Shown piece by piece: positions 27,428 through 55,799 of a DNA stretch of 61,436 nt. Under the pieces are notes generated by a model. That model did no database searches. It was not told where the DNA came from and worked only from the letters and a program-made list of their open reading frames with translations. Location of the stretch: the UHGV virus genome UHGV-0213688; one strand, given 5' to 3'. Both the position numbers and the translations under genes were made by a program. The stretch's first letter is position 1; the number at the start of each line of letters is the position of its first letter. The stretch comes from a virus.

Positions 27428-27796
27428 AAATACCTCCTTGATGCTCTAAAAACTGGTGAGAATTGATAGAAATTGGTTGCATCCGCTTAAAGATGGTAGC
27501 TATGGGTAGCTACAAGACGGATTATACGTTGACGACTCAGAATTTACTACCAAAATCCATATATTTAGAAAGGATGAGTGCAATATATTCAAAAAGAAGG
27601 TAGGTGGGGTCATGGATGTAGGTGGATAGGCTATGTGACAGGTGAGATTTAGACAAGGACTTACTATCAGGATGGACAGGGCACGCCCCGGCGATCCAAG
27701 TACCTGGAAAAGGATGGGTCGGGTCGCGCGGCTGGGCCTGCGTGGGTCGGTGTGCGCTGTGCGAGCTGTGCGCGACGCTGTGCGCCTGTTTCGCCC

Positions 27797-27833
27797 GAGC
27801 TAATGCATTACCATTACCTTTGTGCATTAGCTC
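27797..27833. repeat. perfect 11-bp inverted repeat with 15-nt spacer in a GC-rich non-coding region
   Basis: GAGCTAATGCA-ttaccattacctttg-TGCATTAGCTC; spacer has direct repeat TTACC-ATTACC; no T-run follows. Confidence 0.6.
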
Positions 27834-27854
27834 GCTAGCGTGGCGCTGTGTGCG

Positions 27855-28013
27855 TTATAGCGCGGTTCCCCATTTCCGTTCGTGGCGCTCTGCATACCGC
27901 TGTTCCATTACTTCGTTGTATTTGCGATCCCATTTAGCATCACATACTTCGGTTACAATTAGTGCCACCAGTGGACCAACTACCGCAACGACCATCATGA
28001 TTAAAATTAACAT
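27855..28013 (-). CDS. small single-pass membrane protein (52 aa)
   Basis: ORF 27855..28133; preferred ATG 28013 with GGAGG 7 nt upstream; hydrophobic N-terminus MLILIMMVVAVVGPLVALIV. Confidence 0.4.
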   Translation of the reverse strand: MLILIMMVVAVVGPLVALIVTEVCDAKWDRKYNEVMEQRYAERHERKWGTAL

Positions 28014-28069
28014 TTTGTACCTCCGTATTTGGTTGATGTGTGTAGTATCCACCAGACCGATCATGTTGT

Positions 28070-28213
28070 CTAGGCATTTTGTGCTATTAATTGCGCGTAG
28101 AACTCGCGCCCTGTCTGCATAGCCTGCGCCCATGTAGTCTCTTCGTACTCCATGCGCATGACCTGCAATAATAACGCGTGCTGTGCGCGTGTAAGCGTGT
28201 ATTTGCGTGACAT
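28070..28213 (-). CDS. small hypothetical protein (47 aa, below ORF-track cutoff)
   Basis: ATG 28213 preceded by AGAGG; start separated by one nt from the upstream stop (TAA-C-ATG). Confidence 0.3.
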   Translation of the reverse strand: MSRKYTLTRAQHALLLQVMRMEYEETTWAQAMQTGREFYAQLIAQNA

Positions 28214-28214
28214 G

Positions 28215-28364
28215 TTAATATACCTCTACCAGTTTAACGATGGCGCTAAAATCAGCGATTCCAAGTTGCATCTCTGAGCGGACGAAACCTTCTGCGGCTG
28301 CACGGTTCGGAGCTTTAACGTCTCCAATGTAGTTACCGTAGTACATGACTTTAAACTTTCTCAT
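28215..28364 (-). CDS. small hypothetical protein (49 aa, below ORF-track cutoff)
   Basis: ATG 28364 with GGAGG 8 nt upstream; translationally coupled to next small ORF. Confidence 0.35.
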   Translation of the reverse strand: MRKFKVMYYGNYIGDVKAPNRAAAEGFVRSEMQLGIADFSAIVKLVEVY

Positions 28365-28587
28365 TTTATTTTCCTCCACCTTTCGGCTTTATCTTTCCTT
28401 TGACTATATAGTACGCCATGACTTGATCTATGTCTAGGCCAAACGTGGCATTTTAGCGTAGCGTTGCTGCAAAGCTGTAGATGCAAAACAATTCTAAAAT
28501 AGCACTTTTGGCCTATTCAATATCACGATGCAAGGCTATTATTACTTCAACAAAGCAATACTGCTTAACCACATTAAGGGTTACATC

Positions 28588-28740
28588 ATGGAATTCAAAT
28601 TAGTGGAACTCGAGTCCGGTAAAATAGCTGGTTATGTATCTGCCCCAAGCTGGGAGGAGGCTGAAATCTTCTTAATGGGTCAGTTCGATATGTACATTAG
28701 CGACATCTACAAGGAATACGATTTAGTCCAAATTAAGTGA
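28588..28740 (+). CDS. small hypothetical protein (50 aa)
   Basis: ORF 28528..28740; preferred ATG 28588 (MEFKLVEL) with AAGGG upstream. Confidence 0.4.
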   Translation: MEFKLVELESGKIAGYVSAPSWEEAEIFLMGQFDMYISDIYKEYDLVQIK

Positions 28741-28748
28741 TTTATATC

Positions 28749-28777
28749 TTGCCTAGTTGATCCAACTGGGCAATAAT
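28749..28777 (+). promoter_or_regulatory. sigma70-like promoter, copy 1 of a repeated element
   Basis: TTGCCT - 17 nt - AATAAT; spacer holds imperfect inverted repeat CCTAGTTGA/TCCAACTGG; 17-nt motif TGATTTATATCTTGCCT overlaps upstream stop codon. Confidence 0.45.
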
Positions 28778-28809
28778 AAGTCAACTTAAACAAAACGAGG
28801 ATATACATC

Positions 28810-29313
28810 ATGGCTACCAAACTAATTGGCAAGGGTGCTTTCACTAAAGCATACCTTCTGGATTCAGGTCGCGTACTTCTAAAATCTTGCGACCCTATTA
28901 AAGAATGCATGGCGTGGGGATGGTTTCCTGAGCATGAATTATTTCCCCATGTCACAATGATAGACACAGGAGTCTACGAAATGGATTATTATCCTCGTGT
29001 TCGCAGCTTAAAGAGCGCTTTACAACCTGAGCAATACGCACTCTATAAACAACTCCGCAGCTTGTGCGCAGGGTTAGAGATGCCGCGTAATACATATGAC
29101 AACTATAGCTATCTATATGATGTTTTCAGTAATAGCGACCTGGCCCAAGACATTAAAGATGTGCTCCTGGAAGCTTTGGATGCTTGCGCTAATATTGGTC
29201 CGCAAATGTGGTTTGAAATCAGTCCTCGCAATGTGGCGGTAAAAAACGGAAAACTTGTTTTGCTGGATGTTTTCTTTTGTACACAAGCTCTAAAGAATAT
29301 CAGAAATAGTTGA
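28810..29313 (+). CDS. hypothetical protein with protein-kinase-like motifs
   Basis: 167 aa; IGKGAFTKAY (Gly-rich-loop-like), LLK, SPRNVAV, LLDVFF (DFG-like); too short for a canonical kinase so function is tentative. Confidence 0.5.
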   Translation: MATKLIGKGAFTKAYLLDSGRVLLKSCDPIKECMAWGWFPEHELFPHVTMIDTGVYEMDYYPRVRSLKSALQPEQYALYKQLRSLCAGLEMPRNTYDNYSYLYDVFSNSDLAQDIKDVLLEALDACANIGPQMWFEISPRNVAVKNGKLVLLDVFFCTQALKNIRNS

Positions 29314-29321
29314 TTTATATC

Positions 29322-29350
29322 TTGCCTACTTCAACTTAGTAGGTAATAAT
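29322..29350 (+). promoter_or_regulatory. sigma70-like promoter, copy 2 of the repeated element
   Basis: identical TTGCCT - 17 nt - AATAAT geometry; spacer inverted repeat CCTACT/AGTAGG; same TGATTTATATCTTGCCT motif overlapping upstream stop. Confidence 0.45.
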
Positions 29351-29399
29351 AAGTACAACTTAGCAAGACTACTAAACAATCCAACAGAAGGAATATACC

Positions 29400-30014
29400 A
29401 TGTCTAAAGTAACCCACCGCGAACAGGATAAAATGCGCTACACCATGAAAACGAATGCACGCCGCGCTCTGAAGACCCGCTGGGGCCAGGTTGCACGCGA
29501 TGCACACGAACAGCTTATCCATCAGGACGACATTGGTTTTTACATTATCGAGAAGGAAGTCCTTCAGGTGCTGCGCGATCACGAAAAAGCGCAACAGCCG
29601 GAGCACAAAGTCCCGGCACCGACCGCCGCGCCAGCTGCCAGCGTCTCGGTACTGCGCCCGATGGTAAATCCGGAAATTGTCAAAAGCTGCCTCGAAGCTC
29701 TGGAGCAGGAGGAAGAGAAAGATATGAAACATGCAAAAGCTGCCACGCAGGTTTCTGAAATCAAAATCGAAGAGCCAAAAGCTGCCGCGCCAAAACAGGA
29801 TGTAAAAGCTGCTCGCTGTGATTTCAAAAATGGCGCTCGCAAGCCTCTGAAAGGAAAAACTGCCGAAGTGTGGGCAATGGGTGACAAACTTTTAGCCGAA
29901 CTGGGCCGCACGCCGGAGCTGAAAGAAATGAAAGCTGCAATGCCTTCTTACAACGGGACGACGGTAGCCATTCAGTTCTACGCTTGGCGCAAATATAACG
30001 GCCTGGACGCATAA
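29400..30014 (+). CDS. hypothetical protein; C-terminal ~50-aa module shared with 45730..46533
   Basis: AAGGA RBS; C-terminus ...VWAMGDKLLAELG...IQFYAWRKYNG matches ...AWALMDQISATLG...TQYARWKKFNG. Confidence 0.55.
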   Translation: MSKVTHREQDKMRYTMKTNARRALKTRWGQVARDAHEQLIHQDDIGFYIIEKEVLQVLRDHEKAQQPEHKVPAPTAAPAASVSVLRPMVNPEIVKSCLEALEQEEEKDMKHAKAATQVSEIKIEEPKAAAPKQDVKAARCDFKNGARKPLKGKTAEVWAMGDKLLAELGRTPELKEMKAAMPSYNGTTVAIQFYAWRKYNGLDA

Positions 30015-30069
30015 TCTATAACCACACTGTTCACTGACGGGCTTCTGCGGGAGCCCTAAGGATAAGAAG

Positions 30070-30246
30070 ATGCAATTAGATAGTTTCGCAACTCAATACT
30101 TAAAAGACCTTCAGCGTCGTGTGAATGAAGCACGTGCCAAAGAAGGCCTTAAACCTCTAAACCAGTCCCAGCTTGTTGGCGAATTAATCGAGCAAGCTGC
30201 CACTCAGTCAACATTATTCGTCGGCTCTGTGTTCGTAAGGAAATAA
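30070..30246 (+). CDS. small hypothetical protein (58 aa, below ORF-track cutoff)
   Basis: ATG 30070 with AAGGA 7 nt upstream; stop TAA one nt before next gene ATG. Confidence 0.4.
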   Translation: MQLDSFATQYLKDLQRRVNEARAKEGLKPLNQSQLVGELIEQAATQSTLFVGSVFVRK

Positions 30247-30247
30247 T

Positions 30248-30574
30248 ATGAAAAAGTTCATCCGCTCTTACACTGACATCCGAGGCTTGCGAAAAGGAAC
30301 GGTTTATGAAGTTGCCGACTTCGGAAATAAAATATTGGTCCCTTATTACAATAAAGACGAAAAGCCGGTTCCAATGACCAGCGTATGCTTCACCCGCCTT
30401 ATGCAGGACAAGTTCCTTGTAGAAGTGCAACCGATGCGCAAAGAAGGCACATCCGAAATCTGGTTTGTGCACCGCCAGGAACCGGATAGTATTTGGTCCG
30501 ACTGGATAAGCGAAAAACTGTCGGGTATTATGTCCGACGATACGCTAGCCCACTTCACACCTGTACAGCTCTAA
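30248..30574 (+). CDS. hypothetical protein
   Basis: 108 aa ORF. Confidence 0.5.
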   Translation: MKKFIRSYTDIRGLRKGTVYEVADFGNKILVPYYNKDEKPVPMTSVCFTRLMQDKFLVEVQPMRKEGTSEIWFVHRQEPDSIWSDWISEKLSGIMSDDTLAHFTPVQL

Positions 30575-30953
30575 AATACTCCCGGGCCAGCCCTCCTACT
30601 GGTCCGGTTAACCGCGCAATAAAGTCCTCCTCCAATATCTCGCGATTAAGCGCATTATAGCTTGATATACCTTCCGATCACAATAGTTCAATAAATTTCC
30701 CTCAAAAGCACTTGACTTCTCATTTTTGATCTGCATCCGTTCAGGTTTATGAAAATTTATAGAGTTTATATAATGACCATAAACTCGTCAAATAATACCA
30801 ATAGGTACTATATACATTAATAATAAATCCTTATTTTATATATATTTATAGTTATTATTTACTATTAGTTTAATTATATTTGTTTTAGTTAGTTGACTGA
30901 AAGTTTATAAGTTTATAGGGAGCGAGCCAACCGAGATTTCATAAAATGCATAG

Positions 30954-31217
30954 TATAGTGGTATAGTGGCATTCACTATGTTTCACTACTACTACTAATT
31001 CTTTGTTTGAAAACGGGGTAATAAGGGGAAAACCGTAAACTTATAAACTTTGCTCTGTGTCAAAAATAAAATTAGTGAATAGTGGAATAGTGGTTTATAG
31101 TGGCAAACTTTTATAAAGCCAGTAACGGCGCACTATACACATTTTGCCCACTATGTACGCCACTAAGCACTATATTAAAACAATCCTTGCAAATAGCTAA
31201 TGTCTGTTTTATAGTGG
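30954..31217. repeat. iteron array: at least 6 direct and 4 inverted copies of core ATAGTGG
   Basis: direct copies at 30954, 30962, 31078, 31086, 31097, 31210; inverted CACTAT at 30974, 31131, 31149, 31169; flanked by inverted AAGTTTATAAGTTTA (30900 and 31035) in a 640-bp AT-rich ORF-free region. Confidence 0.6.
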
Positions 31218-31242
31218 CTTCACCAGTTGACTAGGAGGATTT

Positions 31243-31986
31243 ATGAGCGAAGAAACTATCACATCCGCACCATTAACATCTAAAACTGTGGTTAAAGATC
31301 TGTGTTTTGCTGCGTGGGTTGTGCAAGCTTGCTCGCAGTTGCGCGGTGCGCCAACCAAATCACAGGCGCTTGCTATGGTGGAGGATTACTTCAACGAAGA
31401 TGTGGAACAGCCTGTTAAAAAAGCTGTAAGACAAAAAGCGGGAAAGCTGGATGCAGAACGGGCGGCTTTCCTTGCATGGGTTAGCGATAAGCTGGGACAT
31501 GAACTGGATGCCAAAGAGCTTCGCAGCTATACGGGCAAATTCAATTACCACATGGGCAAGGGTAACGACCCATATGAAGAAGCATTTAAGGTAAAAGAAG
31601 ATAAGGGTAAGGCGGGGCGCAAGGAAAACGTCGAGCTTAAAGCATGGATAGAGCGCCAAGCCTTGCTCAAAGGGGATCCTCTGACAGATAAGGAAGCGGA
31701 TAAATTGACACATCGCTGGTACAGGATGCGCCGGAGCGGCGATGTTCGGGACTGGGATAATCGCGGTCGCTGGCCTACGTGTTCCCTGCACCATTACGAA
31801 ACCGCTACCGCTATCCGTGTCAAGCTTGGCGCTCATTGGGTAGACCTTGCACTATACAGGGATGCTGAACAGGCTAAAAATATTCTTCCGAACATTGATA
31901 ATTGGCTTATTAGCTTAAGACAGGGAAGGGAGCCGCAGGACGTTATGTTAGAAGTTAGTAACCATATTATCACAACTCCGCAATAA
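31243..31986 (+). CDS. hypothetical protein, first gene after iteron region
   Basis: 247 aa; AGGAGG RBS 5 nt upstream. Confidence 0.55.
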   Translation: MSEETITSAPLTSKTVVKDLCFAAWVVQACSQLRGAPTKSQALAMVEDYFNEDVEQPVKKAVRQKAGKLDAERAAFLAWVSDKLGHELDAKELRSYTGKFNYHMGKGNDPYEEAFKVKEDKGKAGRKENVELKAWIERQALLKGDPLTDKEADKLTHRWYRMRRSGDVRDWDNRGRWPTCSLHHYETATAIRVKLGAHWVDLALYRDAEQAKNILPNIDNWLISLRQGREPQDVMLEVSNHIITTPQ

Positions 31987-52728: not shown

Positions 52729-53681
52729 TGCTTGACGCTCTTAAATTTGTTCAAGGCTCCGTCGCTAAAAAGGAACTGGTAGAAGGGCTTACCAGCTTTC
52801 TTATCCGTGATGGGCAGGTACAGGGCTTTAACGGTGTTATTGCACTGGGTAGTCCTATTGAGTTGGATATTGATTGCAAGCCCGAAGCTGGGCCTATGAT
52901 TAAAGCTATTTCCAACTGCGATGAAACAGTGCAGCTAACAATGATGGCTAACGGTAAGTTAAATATCAAGTCCGGTCCGTTTCGTGTTGCTATACGCTGC
53001 ATTGATAAAGAAACGCCGCACGTATTTCCTGAAGGTGATTTGTACGAAATAGACGGCGCTCGCTTCGTGCATGGTGTAAAGTCCGTTGCTCCATTTGTTG
53101 GGTCCGATGCTTCCCGTCCGTGGGCTTGCGGTATCCTGATTAATAACGGTAGCCTGTTTGCTACAAATAACGTCACTATTGCGGAATACTGGTTTGGTAA
53201 TCAGTTCCCTATTGATTGCATAATACCTTCCGTTGCAATTAAAGAAATACTGCGTATTAAAGCTAACCCGACGCATATTCAGGTTAGCAAGAATAACGTA
53301 ACGTTTCATTATCCGGAAGGTCGCTGGTTGCGGACACAGCTTATTGATGCGGAATGGCCCGATATACGTCGTATTTTAAATGTTCAATGCAATGCACATC
53401 CTGTTGATCCAGGTCTTTTTGAAGGCTTGCATAAAATTAAACCGTTCGCAGAAGACCGACCGCGTGTATATATTGAAAACGGTCTAGCCCGTACTCACTA
53501 TGATGATGCAGAAGGTGCAAGCTTCGTATTACAGGACCGCACTATAACGGGAGTGTACAATATTGACATCCTGCTATTGCTTGAAAATGTGGTTAAGACG
53601 GCGGACTTTAGTTTATATCCGCAACCTTGCGCATTCTTTGGGGAAAACCTTCGCGGTGTATTAATTGGAGAACGTGTATGA
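52728..53681 (+). CDS. putative sliding-clamp (DnaN beta-clamp-like) protein
   Basis: 317 aa just upstream of DNA polymerase; DAEWPDIRRILN resembles DnaN GRFPDYRRVLP; weak overall. Confidence 0.4.
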   Translation: MLDALKFVQGSVAKKELVEGLTSFLIRDGQVQGFNGVIALGSPIELDIDCKPEAGPMIKAISNCDETVQLTMMANGKLNIKSGPFRVAIRCIDKETPHVFPEGDLYEIDGARFVHGVKSVAPFVGSDASRPWACGILINNGSLFATNNVTIAEYWFGNQFPIDCIIPSVAIKEILRIKANPTHIQVSKNNVTFHYPEGRWLRTQLIDAEWPDIRRILNVQCNAHPVDPGLFEGLHKIKPFAEDRPRVYIENGLARTHYDDAEGASFVLQDRTITGVYNIDILLLLENVVKTADFSLYPQPCAFFGENLRGVLIGERV

Positions 53682-53824
53682 CAAATGAAGAAACATATAA
53701 AGAGGCTTGTGATAAGGTTATACTTTCGCGCTCAAATAAAAACCATAAACCTACACCTGCTCCGGAAGGGTTAAGCGACGATGAACTTTTAAAATGGTTG
53801 GAGTCTTTTAAAGATGAGGACTGA
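53678..53824 (+). CDS. small hypothetical protein (48 aa)
   Basis: ORF 53627..53824; preferred ATG 53678 with GGAG 8 nt upstream, ATGA overlap with upstream stop. Confidence 0.35.
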   Translation: MTNEETYKEACDKVILSRSNKNHKPTPAPEGLSDDELLKWLESFKDED

Positions 53825-55799
53825 TGCTATTGGTTTCTTTTGGCAGGACTTACCGCCTGAGCCAAAAGCAAAGAAAGAAAAGGTTAAACGTTTACCGCCG
53901 GAGCGCACTTGGGAGCGCCCGGATTATCTGCCAAACTTAGAGGAAGCGCGGAACTTCCAATACAACCTGTATACGCAGGACGAACTTATTCAAGCATGGA
54001 TTAACCGCGAACCGCTTGTATACGATATTGAATGTTATCCAAACTATTTCTTAATCGCGTTTCGCGGAGTACGGACTAAGAAAGTTGTCTACTTCGAAAT
54101 GTATCACGGTTGTAGTTTGAATTGCTTGTTACTTAACTGGATAATGACAAACTTCCTTATCGTAAGCTTTAACGGTAACGGGTACGATATGCTAATTGCT
54201 ACGCTTGCGCTTAACGGCTGCTCTAATGCTCAGCTTAAAGATGCAACCGATAAGATAATCGTTGAAGACTGGCGTCCTTCTGATGTGTTGAAGAGTTACC
54301 GCCTTAAGCGTATGCAGAACGTTAACCACATTGATATTATGGAAGTTCTGCCTGGATCTGGTGGTTTGAAACAATATGGCGGACGTGTACATACTCGCCG
54401 TATGCAGGATTTACCGTTCAAGCCAAATACAATGCTGACGCAGGACCAGATGTTGATTGCACGCTGGTACTGTATTAACGACCTTGTACAGACGGAAGAA
54501 TGTTTTATTGCATTGCAAGAGCCTTTGCACCTTCGTGAAATTATGTCGCAAGAATATGGTGTGGATCTGCGTTCACGTTCTGATGCGCAGATTGCAGAAG
54601 ACGTAATTAAACACGAAATTCAAGCGTTAACTGGTGTGCGTCCCCAGCGTCCCCAAGTTTATCCTGGAACAAAGTATGCGTATAACATACCGAACTTTAT
54701 TCGTTTTCAAACACCTCTGATGAATAGTGTTTTGGATATTGTTCGCGACTGCCGCTTTGTTGTTAGTGATAACGGTGGTGTTAGCTTGCCCCCAGCGTTA
54801 ACAGGTCTTGAAATCAAGATTGCGGACGGTGTCTACCGTATGGGTATTGGCGGTCTGCACAGCTCCGAAGAATGTGCTGGACATGGTAAAGAGCCAGGTA
54901 TTAAGAAGCGGGACATTGACGTAACGTCCTATTACCCTTCAATTATTCTTAATCAGGGCTTATACCCCGAACAGTTGGGACCAGCTTTCCTTCGTGTTTA
55001 TAAAAGCATTGTAGACCGTCGTATTGCGGCTAAGCACTCAGGGGACAAGAACACAGCCAACACGCTGAAGATCGTTATCAACGGATCGTTCGGTAAATTG
55101 GGTTCAATGTGGTCTGTATTGTACGCGCCACAATTATTGATACAGGTAACTATCACCGGACAGCTATCCCTGTTAATGCTTATTGAAGCATTCGAGCTAA
55201 ACGGTGTTAAAGTAATTTCAGCGAATACCGATGGTATTGTGGTTAAGTATCCCGACCACATGCAGGACTTCGTTGATAACATGATCAAGTGGTGGGAATC
55301 CGTCACAGGTTTTGAAATGGAATCCACTTATTATGACAAGCTATACAGTGCCAACGTCAATAACTATGTAGCTGTCAAAGAACCTGATGCAGAAGGTAAC
55401 GTTGAAGTTAAGCGTAAGGGCTGGTTTGCCAAGACAGGACTTCAAAAGAACTGTACGGGCGAAATTATCATGGAAGCGGTATGTGAATGCCTGGCCCACG
55501 GTACGCCTGTTTCTCGTACTATACGCAATTGCAACGATATTAGAAAATTCATTATCCTACGTGCGGTGAAAGGTGGCGCGGTATGGAATGGCGAATTTTT
55601 GGGTAAGGTTGTACGCTGGTATTTAAGCACCAATGAAGAAACTCCCGAAATAATCTATGCTAACTCGGGCAACCGTGTAGCTGGTAGCGCGGGAGGTGTC
55701 CCAATCATGACGCTACCGGATAAAATACCGGACGACATAGATTATGATGCTTATATAGCTAAAGCAGAGAAGTATCTCGAAGACATGGGATACGCCTAA
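53814..55799 (+). CDS. DNA polymerase, family B (with 3'-5' exonuclease domain)
   Basis: exo I YDIECYP; pol motif A DVTSYYPSIIL; motif B KIVINGSFGKLG; motif C SANTDGIVV. Confidence 0.8.
   Translation: MRTDAIGFFWQDLPPEPKAKKEKVKRLPPERTWERPDYLPNLEEARNFQYNLYTQDELIQAWINREPLVYDIECYPNYFLIAFRGVRTKKVVYFEMYHGCSLNCLLLNWIMTNFLIVSFNGNGYDMLIATLALNGCSNAQLKDATDKIIVEDWRPSDVLKSYRLKRMQNVNHIDIMEVLPGSGGLKQYGGRVHTRRMQDLPFKPNTMLTQDQMLIARWYCINDLVQTEECFIALQEPLHLREIMSQEYGVDLRSRSDAQIAEDVIKHEIQALTGVRPQRPQVYPGTKYAYNIPNFIRFQTPLMNSVLDIVRDCRFVVSDNGGVSLPPALTGLEIKIADGVYRMGIGGLHSSEECAGHGKEPGIKKRDIDVTSYYPSIILNQGLYPEQLGPAFLRVYKSIVDRRIAAKHSGDKNTANTLKIVINGSFGKLGSMWSVLYAPQLLIQVTITGQLSLLMLIEAFELNGVKVISANTDGIVVKYPDHMQDFVDNMIKWWESVTGFEMESTYYDKLYSANVNNYVAVKEPDAEGNVEVKRKGWFAKTGLQKNCTGEIIMEAVCECLAHGTPVSRTIRNCNDIRKFIILRAVKGGAVWNGEFLGKVVRWYLSTNEETPEIIYANSGNRVAGSAGGVPIMTLPDKIPDDIDYDAYIAKAEKYLEDMGYA

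What the first reader, a model, noticed from the sequence alone, without database searches (positions are those of the whole stretch)
28738..29350. Twice-repeated promoter element overlapping gene stop codons
The 17-nt motif TGATTTATATCTTGCCT occurs at 28738 and 29311, each time starting with the TGA stop of the upstream gene. In both copies TTGCCT is followed by exactly 17 nt and then AATAATAAG. The 17-nt spacers differ in sequence but each holds an inverted repeat (CCTAGTTGA/TCCAACTGG; CCTACT/AGTAGG). Conserved geometry with variable dyad spacers suggests a family of early promoters with individual operator sites.
Basis: seen in the sequence. Interest (0 to 1): 0.5.

Follow-up and report, generated by a model that had tools for sequence, protein, structure and literature searches.

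The report
Repeated intergenic hairpin between early genes
The twice-repeated "promoter" is the visible part of a ~57-nt two-tier RNA hairpin that sits on the stop codons of small early genes in this Seurat-type coliphage and in distantly related phages. It resembles phage T7's RNase III processing signals and marks the points where small genes are swapped in and out; it is a real, conserved element of a known kind.

Summary
TGATTTATATCTTGCCT occurs exactly twice (28738, 29311), each time starting with a gene's TGA stop, followed by TTGCCT-N17-AATAATAAG. The window is a Seuratvirus coliphage genome, and the copies lie in the first kilobase of the rightward early operon.

The interpretation needs revising. 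The "variable dyads" extend into the "-35" (TTGCC/GGCAA), and the conserved flanks also pair. Each copy is therefore one interrupted hairpin of 20-24 bp (28733-28789, 29308-29360).

The same fold occurs after stop codons, always sense-oriented, in Seuratvirus, Nonagvirus, Vidquintavirus and Craquatrovirus phages:
- The upper helix is 99% paired in 26 distinct copies, and 7 of 9 pairs show compensatory changes.
- There are many G·U pairs, which points to an RNA-level structure.
- Only about half the copies keep a sigma70-like hexamer geometry; the spacer ranges from 14 to 17 nt, and some copies have no -35 or -10.

The architecture matches T7's early RNase III sites folded the same way. Relatives differ by small genes of unknown function inserted or deleted at these elements, as with the PeSL cassettes of T4-like phages.

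Best reading: an intercistronic RNA processing and stabilising hairpin that also serves as a recombination joint. Weak promoter activity in the window's two copies is not excluded. Individual operator sites are not supported.

The parts
28733..28789 (+). Element copy 1, a two-tier hairpin. Lower-stem 5' arm is 28733-28745 and contains the TGA stop at 28738-28740. Internal loop AUC is 28746-28748. Upper stem is 28749-28759 paired with 28763-28773, with apical loop 28760-28762. 3' internal loop UA is 28774-28775. Lower-stem 3' arm is 28776-28782 plus 28784-28789, with A28783 bulged.
   Evidence: RNAfold gives dG -24.4 kcal/mol, 24 pairs, z = -7.6. The covariance model scores 76.4 bits on the + strand and 28.8 bits on the - strand.
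29308..29360 (+). Element copy 2, a two-tier hairpin. Lower-stem 5' arm is 29308-29318 and contains the TGA stop at 29311-29313. Internal loop is 29319-29321. Upper stem is 29322-29330 paired with 29338-29346, with apical loop 29331-29337. 3' internal loop is 29347-29348. Lower-stem 3' arm is 29349-29354 plus 29356-29360.
   Evidence: RNAfold gives dG -17.5 kcal/mol, 20 pairs, z = -4.5. The covariance model scores 61.8 bits on the + strand and 19.9 bits on the - strand.
28749..28777 (+). Sigma70-like hexamers embedded in copy 1: TTGCCT (28749-28754), 17 nt, AATAAT (28772-28777). If this is a promoter, the start site would be near 28783-28786.
   Evidence: 9/12 match. Function not shown.
29322..29350 (+). 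Sigma70-like hexamers embedded in copy 2: TTGCCT (29322-29327), 17 nt, AATAAT (29345-29350). If this is a promoter, the start site would be near 29356-29359.
   Evidence: 9/12 match. Function not shown.
28588..28740 (+). First rightward early gene (50 aa from ATG 28588; the longest ORF starts at 28528 and gives 70 aa). Its TGA lies inside the lower stem of copy 1.
   Evidence: leader homology to relatives that carry a different first gene runs to 28591. No Pfam or PHROG family.
28810..29313 (+). The 167-aa gene of unknown function bracketed by the two copies. It is the variable cassette: absent in SA80RD, SHIN8 and STP-SP5, and replaced by an 82-aa gene in CAjan-type phages.
   Evidence: PHROG 11084, function unknown.
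29400..30014 (+). Conserved 204-aa early gene downstream of copy 2. It served as the anchor for finding relatives.
   Evidence: homologs at 95-99% in Seuratvirus, 56% in yong3, and 29-33% in PSTCR4 and Vid5.
28790..28809 (+). Leader and ribosome-binding site (GAGGA, 28797-28801) of the 167-aa gene. The leader plus ATGGCTAC is shared with the alternative 82-aa cassette of relatives, with the breakpoint at 28817.
29361..29399 (+). Leader and ribosome-binding site of the 204-aa gene. The 35 nt from the AATAAT box (29345-29379, so starting inside copy 2 and running into this leader) are 24/35 identical, ungapped, to the TATTAT box plus leader of the first rightward gene (28537-28571). That is the best match in the whole window.

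Best explanation
Each copy is an intercistronic structured RNA element in the host-RNAP-transcribed early operon. It is a hairpin of about 57 nt, made of a lower stem of 11-13 bp that includes the upstream gene's stop codon, a 3x2 internal loop, an upper stem of 9-11 bp, and a variable apical loop.

Inferred mechanism:
- The element is transcribed as part of the polycistronic early mRNA.
- It acts like the T7 early RNase III processing signals. Host RNase III would cut once at the internal loop, predicted within GGCAA|UA|AUAAG at about 28773-28776 and 29346-29349.
- The upstream cistron would be left with a protective 3' hairpin. The downstream cistron would be freed with an unstructured leader.

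Because the same 50-66-nt block recurs between neighbouring small genes of unknown function, it also serves as the homology at which gene cassettes are deleted, inserted or exchanged, as PeSLs do in T4-like phages.

Shown here: the fold, its conservation and covariation, sense orientation, restriction to the promoter-proximal early region, the likeness to T7 sites, and breakpoints at the element edges.

Inferred only: cleavage by RNase III and the stabilising effect.

The sigma70-like hexamers are largely a by-product of the stems. They may add weak internal promoter activity in the copies that have them.
For: Fold:
- All 16 hand-collected variants give the same two-tier hairpin, with z from -3.1 to -7.6. 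The sense strand is more stable than its complement in 12 of 16.

Covariation:
- On the MAFFT alignment A1, the upper helix is 98.5% paired and 7 of 9 pairs change on both sides. All five measures exceed 500 of 500 shuffles. Slid controls give 31-48% paired against 86.8%.
- On the model-based alignment of 26 distinct sense copies, the upper helix is 99.1% paired, with 29 G·U cells against 2 non-pairs.
- The lower stem also compensates. In CAjan-type junction 2, G-C becomes U-A and U·G becomes C-G.

Distribution:
- Copies occur after stop codons in Seuratvirus, yong3, Nonagvirus JenK1, Vid5 and PSTCR4. They also occur in the leftward early operon of CAjan-type phages. They are always in the sense of the flanking genes.
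- They lie only within about 1 kb of the divergent control region.

Hairpin versus promoter:
- The hairpin is present in 21 of 21 distinct copies. A sigma70-like geometry is present in only 11-12 of 21.

Likeness to T7:
- The T7 sites R0.3, R0.5, R1, R1.1 and R1.3, folded identically, show a lower stem starting at or beside the upstream stop codon, an internal loop and a 9-10-bp upper stem. They have 19-26 pairs and dG of -21 to -25. The window's copies have 24 and 20 pairs and dG of -24.4 and -17.5.
- E. coli RNase III substrates typically have two helical turns. Internal loops limit cleavage to one strand and leave a protective 3' hairpin (PMC1540722).

Recombination role:
- SA80RD and SHIN8 carry one chimeric element that continues leftwards as copy 1 and rightwards as copy 2.
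- Other breakpoints fall at 28730-28738, 28788, 29304-29311 and 29362.
- Repeat-mediated deletion has been seen experimentally in Seuratvirus CSP1 (PMC13577005).
Against: - There are no transcript or cleavage data for any of these phages. RNase III action is inferred from architecture alone.
- RNase III sequence antideterminants (proximal and distal boxes) were not evaluated.
- The inner lower stem (UUAU/AUAA) and the AAUAAUAA box are nearly invariant rather than covarying. Some sequence-specific constraint therefore exists beyond pairing; it could be a -10 box, an RNase E site or a protein contact.
- Outer lower-stem pairing is only about 76% in a fixed register.
- Many of the aligned copies are close relatives, so cell counts overstate the number of independent events. 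There are about 11 independent upper-stem sequence types.
- The best candidate for a primary rightward promoter upstream of the first gene scores only 8/12. That leaves room for the 9/12 elements to be real promoters.
- The T7 cleavage coordinates used are from my memory of Dunn & Studier 1983, not from the fetched record.
Confidence: 0.55

Rival explanations
1. Composite early promoter of the PeSL type. TTGCCT-17-AATAAT would be a working sigma70 promoter with an A/T-rich upstream stretch, driving the next gene. The stem-loop in the spacer would attenuate read-through from upstream. This is not exclusive of the RNA-processing reading.
For: - Both window copies score 9/12 with a 17-nt spacer, A at -11 and T at -7.
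- The same geometry is kept in 11-12 of 21 family variants, including distant Vid5 and PSTCR4-1.
- PeSLs place the stem-loop 'most commonly between the -35 and -10 boxes', and they have experimentally shown promoter and terminator activity (PMC2839356).
- The AATAAT box plus leader of copy 2 is the best match in the window (24/35) to the TATTAT box plus leader of the first rightward gene.
- No better + strand promoter is seen upstream of the first gene; the best is 8/12.
- T7 has minor E. coli promoters B and C annotated beside or inside its RNase III hairpins.
Against: - A 9/12 match occurs 117 times in the window.
- Ten of 21 family copies lack the geometry but keep the hairpin. The spacer is 14 or 15 nt in PSTCR4-3, CSP1-2 and JenK1-3. 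In CAjan-type junction 2 the hexamers are ACTGCT and AGTAAT. The leftward copies have no TTG.
- TTGCC and GGCAA are mutually complementary, so their conservation is explained by pairing.
- PeSL promoters match the consensus exactly; these do not.
Confidence: 0.3
2. Intrinsic (rho-independent) terminator or attenuator ending each small early gene, as the SA126VB record annotates the homologous sites.
For: - The SA126VB record marks both homologous junctions as 'rho-independent terminator (WebGeSTer)'.
- The position just after stop codons fits.
- PeSL stem-loops terminate efficiently in a reporter assay.
Against: - There is no U-tract. The hairpin is followed by AAUAAUAAG.
- The consensus terminator scan reports nothing at either copy.
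- The U-rich 5' and A-rich 3' flanks pair with each other instead of forming a terminator tail.
- Downstream genes in the same operon need read-through.
Confidence: 0.1
3. One reading: promoters whose variable dyad spacers are individual operators for DNA-binding regulators.
For: There is dyad symmetry between the hexamers, and the dyad sequence differs between sites.
Against: - The dyads differ at every site (about 11 sequence types), so each would need its own regulator.
- Pairing is kept through G·T wobbles that are A·C mismatches on the other strand.
- Stem length and loop size vary (loop 3-7 nt).
- The flanks pair as well.
- No repressor gene was identified next to the sites; the neighbouring genes have no known function.
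Confidence: 0.03
4. A DNA-level hairpin on the displaced or lagging-template strand, acting for example as a priming or recombination hot spot. Alternatively, a functionless duplication scar that is merely copied along with the cassettes.
For: - Sense orientation on both sides of the divergent region also equals the lagging-strand template if replication starts there (GC skew turn).
- Breakpoints coincide with the element edges.
Against: - The elements sit strictly between a stop codon and the next ribosome-binding site.
- The fold persists across four genera with only 29-33% identity in the neighbouring protein.
- The many compensatory changes argue for selection on the fold, not a scar.
- G·T pairs are poor in DNA.
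Confidence: 0.05

Closest known systems
RNase III processing signals of the phage T7 early region (R0.3, R0.5, R1, R1.1, R1.3)
   Same: - Both lie between cistrons of an early operon transcribed by host RNA polymerase.
- The lower stem starts at or over the upstream stop codon.
- Both have a small asymmetric internal loop, a 9-11-bp upper stem and about two helical turns in total.
- Stabilities are similar, and within each genome the copies form a recognisable family.
- In T7, single-strand cleavage at the internal loop leaves a protective 3' hairpin (PMC1540722).
   Different: - There is no sequence similarity to the T7 sites, and the host phage lineage differs (siphoviruses with deazaguanine DNA-modification genes).
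- Cleavage is untested here.
- These elements contain sigma70-like hexamers inside the stem.
- They bracket variable small genes of unknown function. Such indels at RNase III sites are not something I know to be reported for T7.
PeSL (promoter-early stem-loop) cassettes of T4-like myoviruses (Arbiol et al. 2010, PMC2839356; Comeau et al. 2014, PMC4122927)
   Same: - Both are a repeated intergenic motif running from a stop codon to the next ATG.
- Both have an A/T-rich stretch, a -35, a stem-loop mostly between -35 and -10, a -10 and a Shine-Dalgarno sequence.
- Both flank small genes of unknown function in a hyperplastic early region.
- Close relatives differ by cassettes bounded by the motif, and some carry a single chimeric motif.
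   Different: - PeSL promoters match the sigma70 consensus and are strong; these score 9/12, and half the family lacks the geometry.
- The PeSL stem is G/C-rich and acts as a terminator.
- PeSLs are not described as two-tier hairpins whose flanks pair.
- PeSLs number dozens per genome, against 1-3 here.
- PeSLs are known only in T4-like myoviruses.
Intrinsic terminators
   Same: A stable hairpin directly after a stop codon, annotated as a terminator in one relative's record.
   Different: There is no 3' U-tract, and the flanks pair to extend the helix.

Membership tests
T7-type RNase III processing signal | About two helical turns (about 20 bp or more) of double-stranded RNA | tested here: met
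   The window copies have 24 and 20 pairs, against 19-26 pairs for T7 sites folded the same way. The criterion is from PMC1540722.
T7-type RNase III processing signal | An internal loop or bulge separating the upper and lower stems, which directs single-strand cleavage | tested here: met
   A 3x2 internal loop (AUC/UA) is present in both copies and in essentially all family members.
T7-type RNase III processing signal | Location between cistrons of a polycistronic early mRNA, in the sense orientation | tested here: met
   All copies lie between a stop codon and the next ribosome-binding site, in the sense orientation, in both divergent early operons.
T7-type RNase III processing signal | Selection for the RNA fold (compensatory changes; G·U tolerated, A·C not) | tested here: met
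   the upper helix is 98.5-99.1% paired, 7 of 9 pairs show double changes, and there are 29 G·U cells against 2 non-pairs.
T7-type RNase III processing signal | Site-specific cleavage by host RNase III | not testable with these tools
   This needs rnc+/rnc- transcript mapping or an in vitro cleavage assay.
T7-type RNase III processing signal | Absence of proximal-box and distal-box antideterminant base pairs | not tested
   The cleavage register is unknown, so the box positions cannot be assigned.
PeSL composite promoter-terminator cassette | A repeated intergenic motif from stop codon to next ATG, with a stem-loop between or overlapping the -35 and -10 | tested here: met
   compared with the description in PMC2839356.
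PeSL composite promoter-terminator cassette | A sigma70 promoter identical or near-identical to the consensus (a strong early promoter) | tested here: not met
   The window copies score 9/12. Ten of 21 family variants lack the geometry.
PeSL composite promoter-terminator cassette | Flanks small genes of unknown function, with indels and replacements between close relatives bounded by the motif, and chimeric single motifs | tested here: met
   The chimeras are in SA80RD and SHIN8. The slot holds 0, 1 or 2 genes from 3 families.
PeSL composite promoter-terminator cassette | Demonstrated promoter and terminator activity, and mini-circle formation | not testable with these tools
   This needs reporter fusions and inverse PCR.
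Sigma70 promoter | A -35 and -10 with 16-18-nt spacing, conserved among homologous sites | tested here: inconclusive
   Met in the window's two copies (9/12, 17 nt). Not conserved across the family, where the spacer is 14-17 nt and hexamers are lost in about half.
Sigma70 promoter | A transcription start 6-8 nt downstream of the -10 | not testable with these tools
   No transcript data were found for this phage group.
Intrinsic terminator | A G+C-rich hairpin followed immediately by a U-tract | tested here: not met
   The hairpin is followed by AAUAAUAAG. The terminator scan gives no hit at either copy.
Repressor operator | Symmetric half-sites of shared sequence on double-stranded DNA | tested here: not met
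   The dyad sequences differ at every site, and pairing relies on strand-specific G·T wobbles.
Rfam families | A match to a curated covariance model | tested here: not met
   No relevant hit at E <= 1 in 27500-31500.

The most novel reading that the evidence does not exclude
This could be an undescribed structured-RNA family ('early-operon punctuation hairpin') shared by Seuratvirus, Nonagvirus, Vidquintavirus and Craquatrovirus. All four belong to a wider group of siphoviruses that carry 7-deazaguanine DNA-modification genes.

The element would combine three roles in one block of about 57 nt:
- an RNase III-type processing and 3'-stabilising signal;
- a facultative internal sigma70 promoter built from the same nucleotides as the stems;
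- the portable homology by which small early genes of unknown function move within and between genera.

In effect it would be a siphovirus counterpart of PeSLs with a different RNA logic.
Probability: 0.3. Interest if true: 0.6.

Novelty: new member of a known kind. Interest (0 to 1): 0.4.

Why it matters
- **Annotation.** A covariance model now identifies them cleanly, and the family could be deposited in Rfam.
- **Biology.** If the elements are RNase III signals, early gene expression in this widely isolated group of coliphages would depend on host RNA processing, as in T7. That is directly testable in rnc mutants. Several members of the group belong to the BASEL collection.
- **Evolution and engineering.** The elements mark natural cassette boundaries where small early genes, often anti-defence candidates, are gained and lost. 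That is useful for comparative mining and for designing insertions in therapeutic phages.
- **Caution.** The finding is not a surprise in kind. Both intercistronic processing hairpins and promoter/stem-loop cassettes are known from other phages.

Tried and rejected
- An exact 14-mer scan of IMG/VR returned 120 mostly unrelated contigs. These are chance matches and were not used.
- The search for related loci with the 204-aa protein found only 4 IMG/VR loci, so the annotated phage collection was used instead.
- The genome-wide pattern CTTGCCT-N17-AATAAT and the GGCAATAATAAGT box give no further copies in the window above chance. The covariance model with filters off also finds only the two copies.
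- Rfam gave no relevant hit. Pfam, PHROG and PDB give no function for the cassette genes. My by-eye impression of a kinase-like P-loop in the 167-aa protein is unsupported and was dropped.
- The intrinsic-terminator reading was rejected because there is no U-tract.
- The operator reading was rejected because of strand-specific wobble pairs and site-specific dyads.
- I considered UGA read-through into the in-frame TAA TAA, 12 codons downstream in both copies and in CSP1-2. The frame relation is absent in JenK1 and PSTCR4, so it is judged incidental.
- Literature searches on Seuratvirus, CAjan, 9g and Vid5 found no description of this element and no transcript maps.
- The search for a canonical rightward promoter upstream of the first gene found nothing better than 8/12.
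Full report
**1. Observation.**

The 17-mer TGATTTATATCTTGCCT is present exactly at 28738 and 29311 and nowhere else in the window, even with three mismatches. The expected count at that tolerance is 0.17.

Both copies begin with the TGA stop of an ORF: 28528..28740 and 28810..29313. In both, TTGCCT is followed by 17 nt and then AATAATAAG. The similarity extends over 66 nt at 73% identity.

The inverted repeats are longer than stated and include the '-35'. The conserved flanks are themselves complementary.

**2. Context.**

The window is essentially a complete Seuratvirus (Queuovirinae) coliphage genome, 90-99% identical to Seurat, CAjan, slur01 and about 30 others over this region.

GC skew and ORF orientation switch at about 28.4 kb. 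The two copies therefore lie in the first kilobase of the rightward early operon, next to the divergent control region.

The genes around them have no known function.

**3. What the element is.**

RNAfold shows that each copy is a single interrupted hairpin:
- Lower stem: 28733-28745 pairs with 28776-28789. It includes the TGA stop.
- Internal loop: AUC on the 5' side, UA on the 3' side.
- Upper stem: TTGCCUAGUUG/CAACUGGGCAA.
- Apical loop: 3 nt.
- Copy 1 has dG -24.4 kcal/mol and 24 pairs. Copy 2 (29308-29360) has dG -17.5 kcal/mol and 20 pairs.

Homologous junctions in relatives carry different upper-stem sequences but the same fold. Examples:
- STP-SP5 has GCCG...CGGC where the window has GCCU...GGGC.
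- CAjan-type phages have CUGCUCAUC/GGUGGGCAG.

Using the conserved 204-aa gene as an anchor, I found the same element in more distant phages:
- Hafnia phage yong3.
- Nonagvirus JenK1.
- Pantoea phage Vid5.
- Three consecutive junctions of Providencia phage PSTCR4. The neighbouring protein in PSTCR4 is only 29% identical.

A covariance model found further copies in the leftward early operon of CAjan-type phages. These have yet another upper stem (AAUGGGCAU/GUGCCCAUU). They too are in the sense orientation of their flanking genes.

In the window and in (near-)complete PSTCR4, JenK1 and Vid5 genomes, copies occur only beside the divergent control region.

**4. Selection acts on the fold.**

- On a MAFFT alignment of 15 variants, the upper helix is 98.5% paired and 7 of 9 pairs change on both sides. 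No shuffle out of 500 reaches any of the five measures. Sliding the partner columns drops pairing from 86.8% to 31-48%.
- On the model-based alignment of 26 distinct sense copies, the upper helix is 99.1% paired. It has 29 G·U cells and only 2 non-pairs.
- The sense strand is more stable than the complement in 12 of 16 variants.
- The lower stem also shows compensation. In CAjan-type junction 2, G-C becomes U-A and U·G becomes C-G. Its inner four or five pairs (UUAU/AUAA) are nearly invariant, and the outer register shifts between lineages.

Caveat: many copies are close relatives. There are about 11 independent upper-stem sequence types.

**5. Promoter or hairpin?**

The window's copies score 9/12 against the sigma70 consensus with a 17-nt spacer. 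But 117 sites in the window score at least 9/12.

Across 21 distinct family variants, the hairpin is present in all. The homologous hexamer geometry is present in only 11-12. The exceptions:
- The spacer is 15 nt in CSP1-2 and JenK1-3, and 14 nt in PSTCR4-3.
- CAjan-type junction 2 reads ACTGCT...AGTAAT.
- The leftward copies and PSTCR4-2 have no TTG.
- JenK1-1 has no -10.

TTGCC and GGCAA pair with each other, so their conservation does not need a promoter to explain it.

A weak internal promoter in the copies that have the hexamers remains possible, for three reasons:
- The AATAAT box plus leader of copy 2 is the best match in the window (24/35) to the TATTAT box plus leader of the first rightward gene.
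- No better promoter is visible upstream of that gene.
- T7 has minor E. coli promoters beside its RNase III hairpins.

**6. Likely mechanism.**

I folded the T7 early intergenic gaps that hold RNase III sites. The coordinates are recalled from Dunn & Studier 1983 and are not in the fetched record.

Five of six sites give the same architecture:
- The lower stem begins at or beside the upstream stop codon. In R0.5, for example, it reads GAG-UGA-UAG.
- There is a small internal loop and a 9-10-bp upper stem.
- They have 19-26 pairs and dG of -21 to -25.
- The recalled cut site falls in the 3' side of the internal loop.

E. coli RNase III substrates typically span two helical turns. Internal loops restrict cleavage to one strand and leave a protective 3' hairpin (PMC1540722).

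By analogy, I propose cleavage within GGCAA|UA|AUAAG. This would leave the upstream cistron with the upper hairpin at its 3' end and give the downstream cistron a free leader. This step is inference.

An intrinsic terminator is unlikely because there is no U-tract. One relative's record nonetheless annotates the sites that way.

**7. Cassette behaviour.**

The slot between the first gene and the 204-aa gene varies among relatives:
- No gene: SA80RD, SHIN8, STP-SP5.
- An 82-aa gene: CAjan, Greed, slur01 and others.
- Two genes: CSP1.
- The 167-aa gene: the window, Seurat, VogelGryff.

Breakpoints in window coordinates fall in two places:
- At the element edges: 28730-28738, 28788, 29304-29311 and 29362.
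- At ribosome-binding sites and start codons: 28591, 28805-28817 and 29394.

SA80RD and SHIN8 have one chimeric element, with the copy-1 hairpin and the copy-2 leader. That is the product expected from recombination between the two copies.

This is the behaviour described for the PeSLs of T4-like phages. Their layout also matches: A/T-rich stretch, -35, stem-loop mostly between -35 and -10, -10, then Shine-Dalgarno (PMC2839356 and PMC4122927).

Repeat-mediated deletion has been observed experimentally in Seuratvirus CSP1, between 14-bp repeats (PMC13577005).

**8. Novelty and verdict.**

I found no description of the element in Rfam or in the genome papers of this phage group.

In kind it is not new. 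It combines features of T7-type intercistronic RNase III signals and PeSL cassettes, in a different phage lineage and with an unrelated sequence. I rate it a new member of a known kind, of moderate interest.

The decisive experiments are TEX/RppH-discriminated 5'-end mapping in rnc+ and rnc- hosts, and in vitro RNase III cleavage.

Noticed in passing
window 30575-31242: A 668-nt A/T-rich non-coding region with a cluster of ATAGTGG/CCACTAT repeats. Seven of the window's nine exact copies lie within 30955-31217. It also holds a perfect 16-nt inverted repeat (30900-30915 / 31036-31051). The arrangement looks like iterons or an operator array, so it may be an origin or a middle-gene control region.
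   Followed up: partly
window 28528-28740: The first rightward gene is probably shorter than the longest ORF. Leader homology with relatives that carry a different first gene runs to 28591. That points to ATG 28588 (50 aa, ribosome-binding site AAGGG at 28576-28580) rather than ATG 28528 (70 aa), which is the start annotated in CAjan.
   Followed up: partly
window 28380-28587: The divergent control region shows leftward sigma70-like sites (TTGAAT-18-TAGAAT and TAGACA-17-TACTAT on the - strand). The best rightward candidate is only 8/12 (TATTCA-17-TATTAT, ending at 28542). The segment TTGGCCTATTCAA...GGCTATTATTACTTCAAC resembles a degenerate copy of the element.
   Followed up: partly
L138 / L145 (Pantoea phage Vid5, MG948468, record about 53500-54800): The homolog of the 204-aa gene lies on the record's minus strand (53975-54475; tblastn E = 2e-18), with an element copy just upstream (54541-54595, minus strand). 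The record annotates gp80 on the plus strand over that stretch. gp80, and perhaps its neighbours gp78-79 and gp81, may therefore be called on the wrong strand, and the true divergence point may lie further right.
   Followed up: partly
window 28738-28779 and 29311-29352: Both TGA stops are followed in frame, 12 codons later, by TAA TAA (the AATAATAA box). The same holds in CSP1 junction 2 despite a different hairpin length, but not in JenK1 or PSTCR4. This is probably incidental and was not pursued as read-through.
   Followed up: partly
window 30015-30069: A different, simple G+C-rich hairpin (GGGCTTC-TGCG-GGAGCCC) sits just upstream of the ribosome-binding site of the 58-aa ORF. It has no U-tract.
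   Followed up: no
window 29400-30014: The C-terminal 60-100 residues of the 204-aa early protein are shared with proteins of many unrelated siphoviruses infecting Pseudomonas, Klebsiella, Vibrio, Stenotrophomonas and Shewanella. They give a sub-threshold Pfam hit to HNH_repeat (PF18780, E = 0.044). In CAjan, a homing endonuclease gene directly follows this gene.
   Followed up: no
L141 (phage T7, record 1514 and 3113): The T7 RefSeq record annotates the minor E. coli promoters B and C next to or inside the intergenic hairpins that hold RNase III sites R0.5 and R1. This is a precedent for a promoter and a processing signal sharing one intergenic gap.
   Followed up: yes
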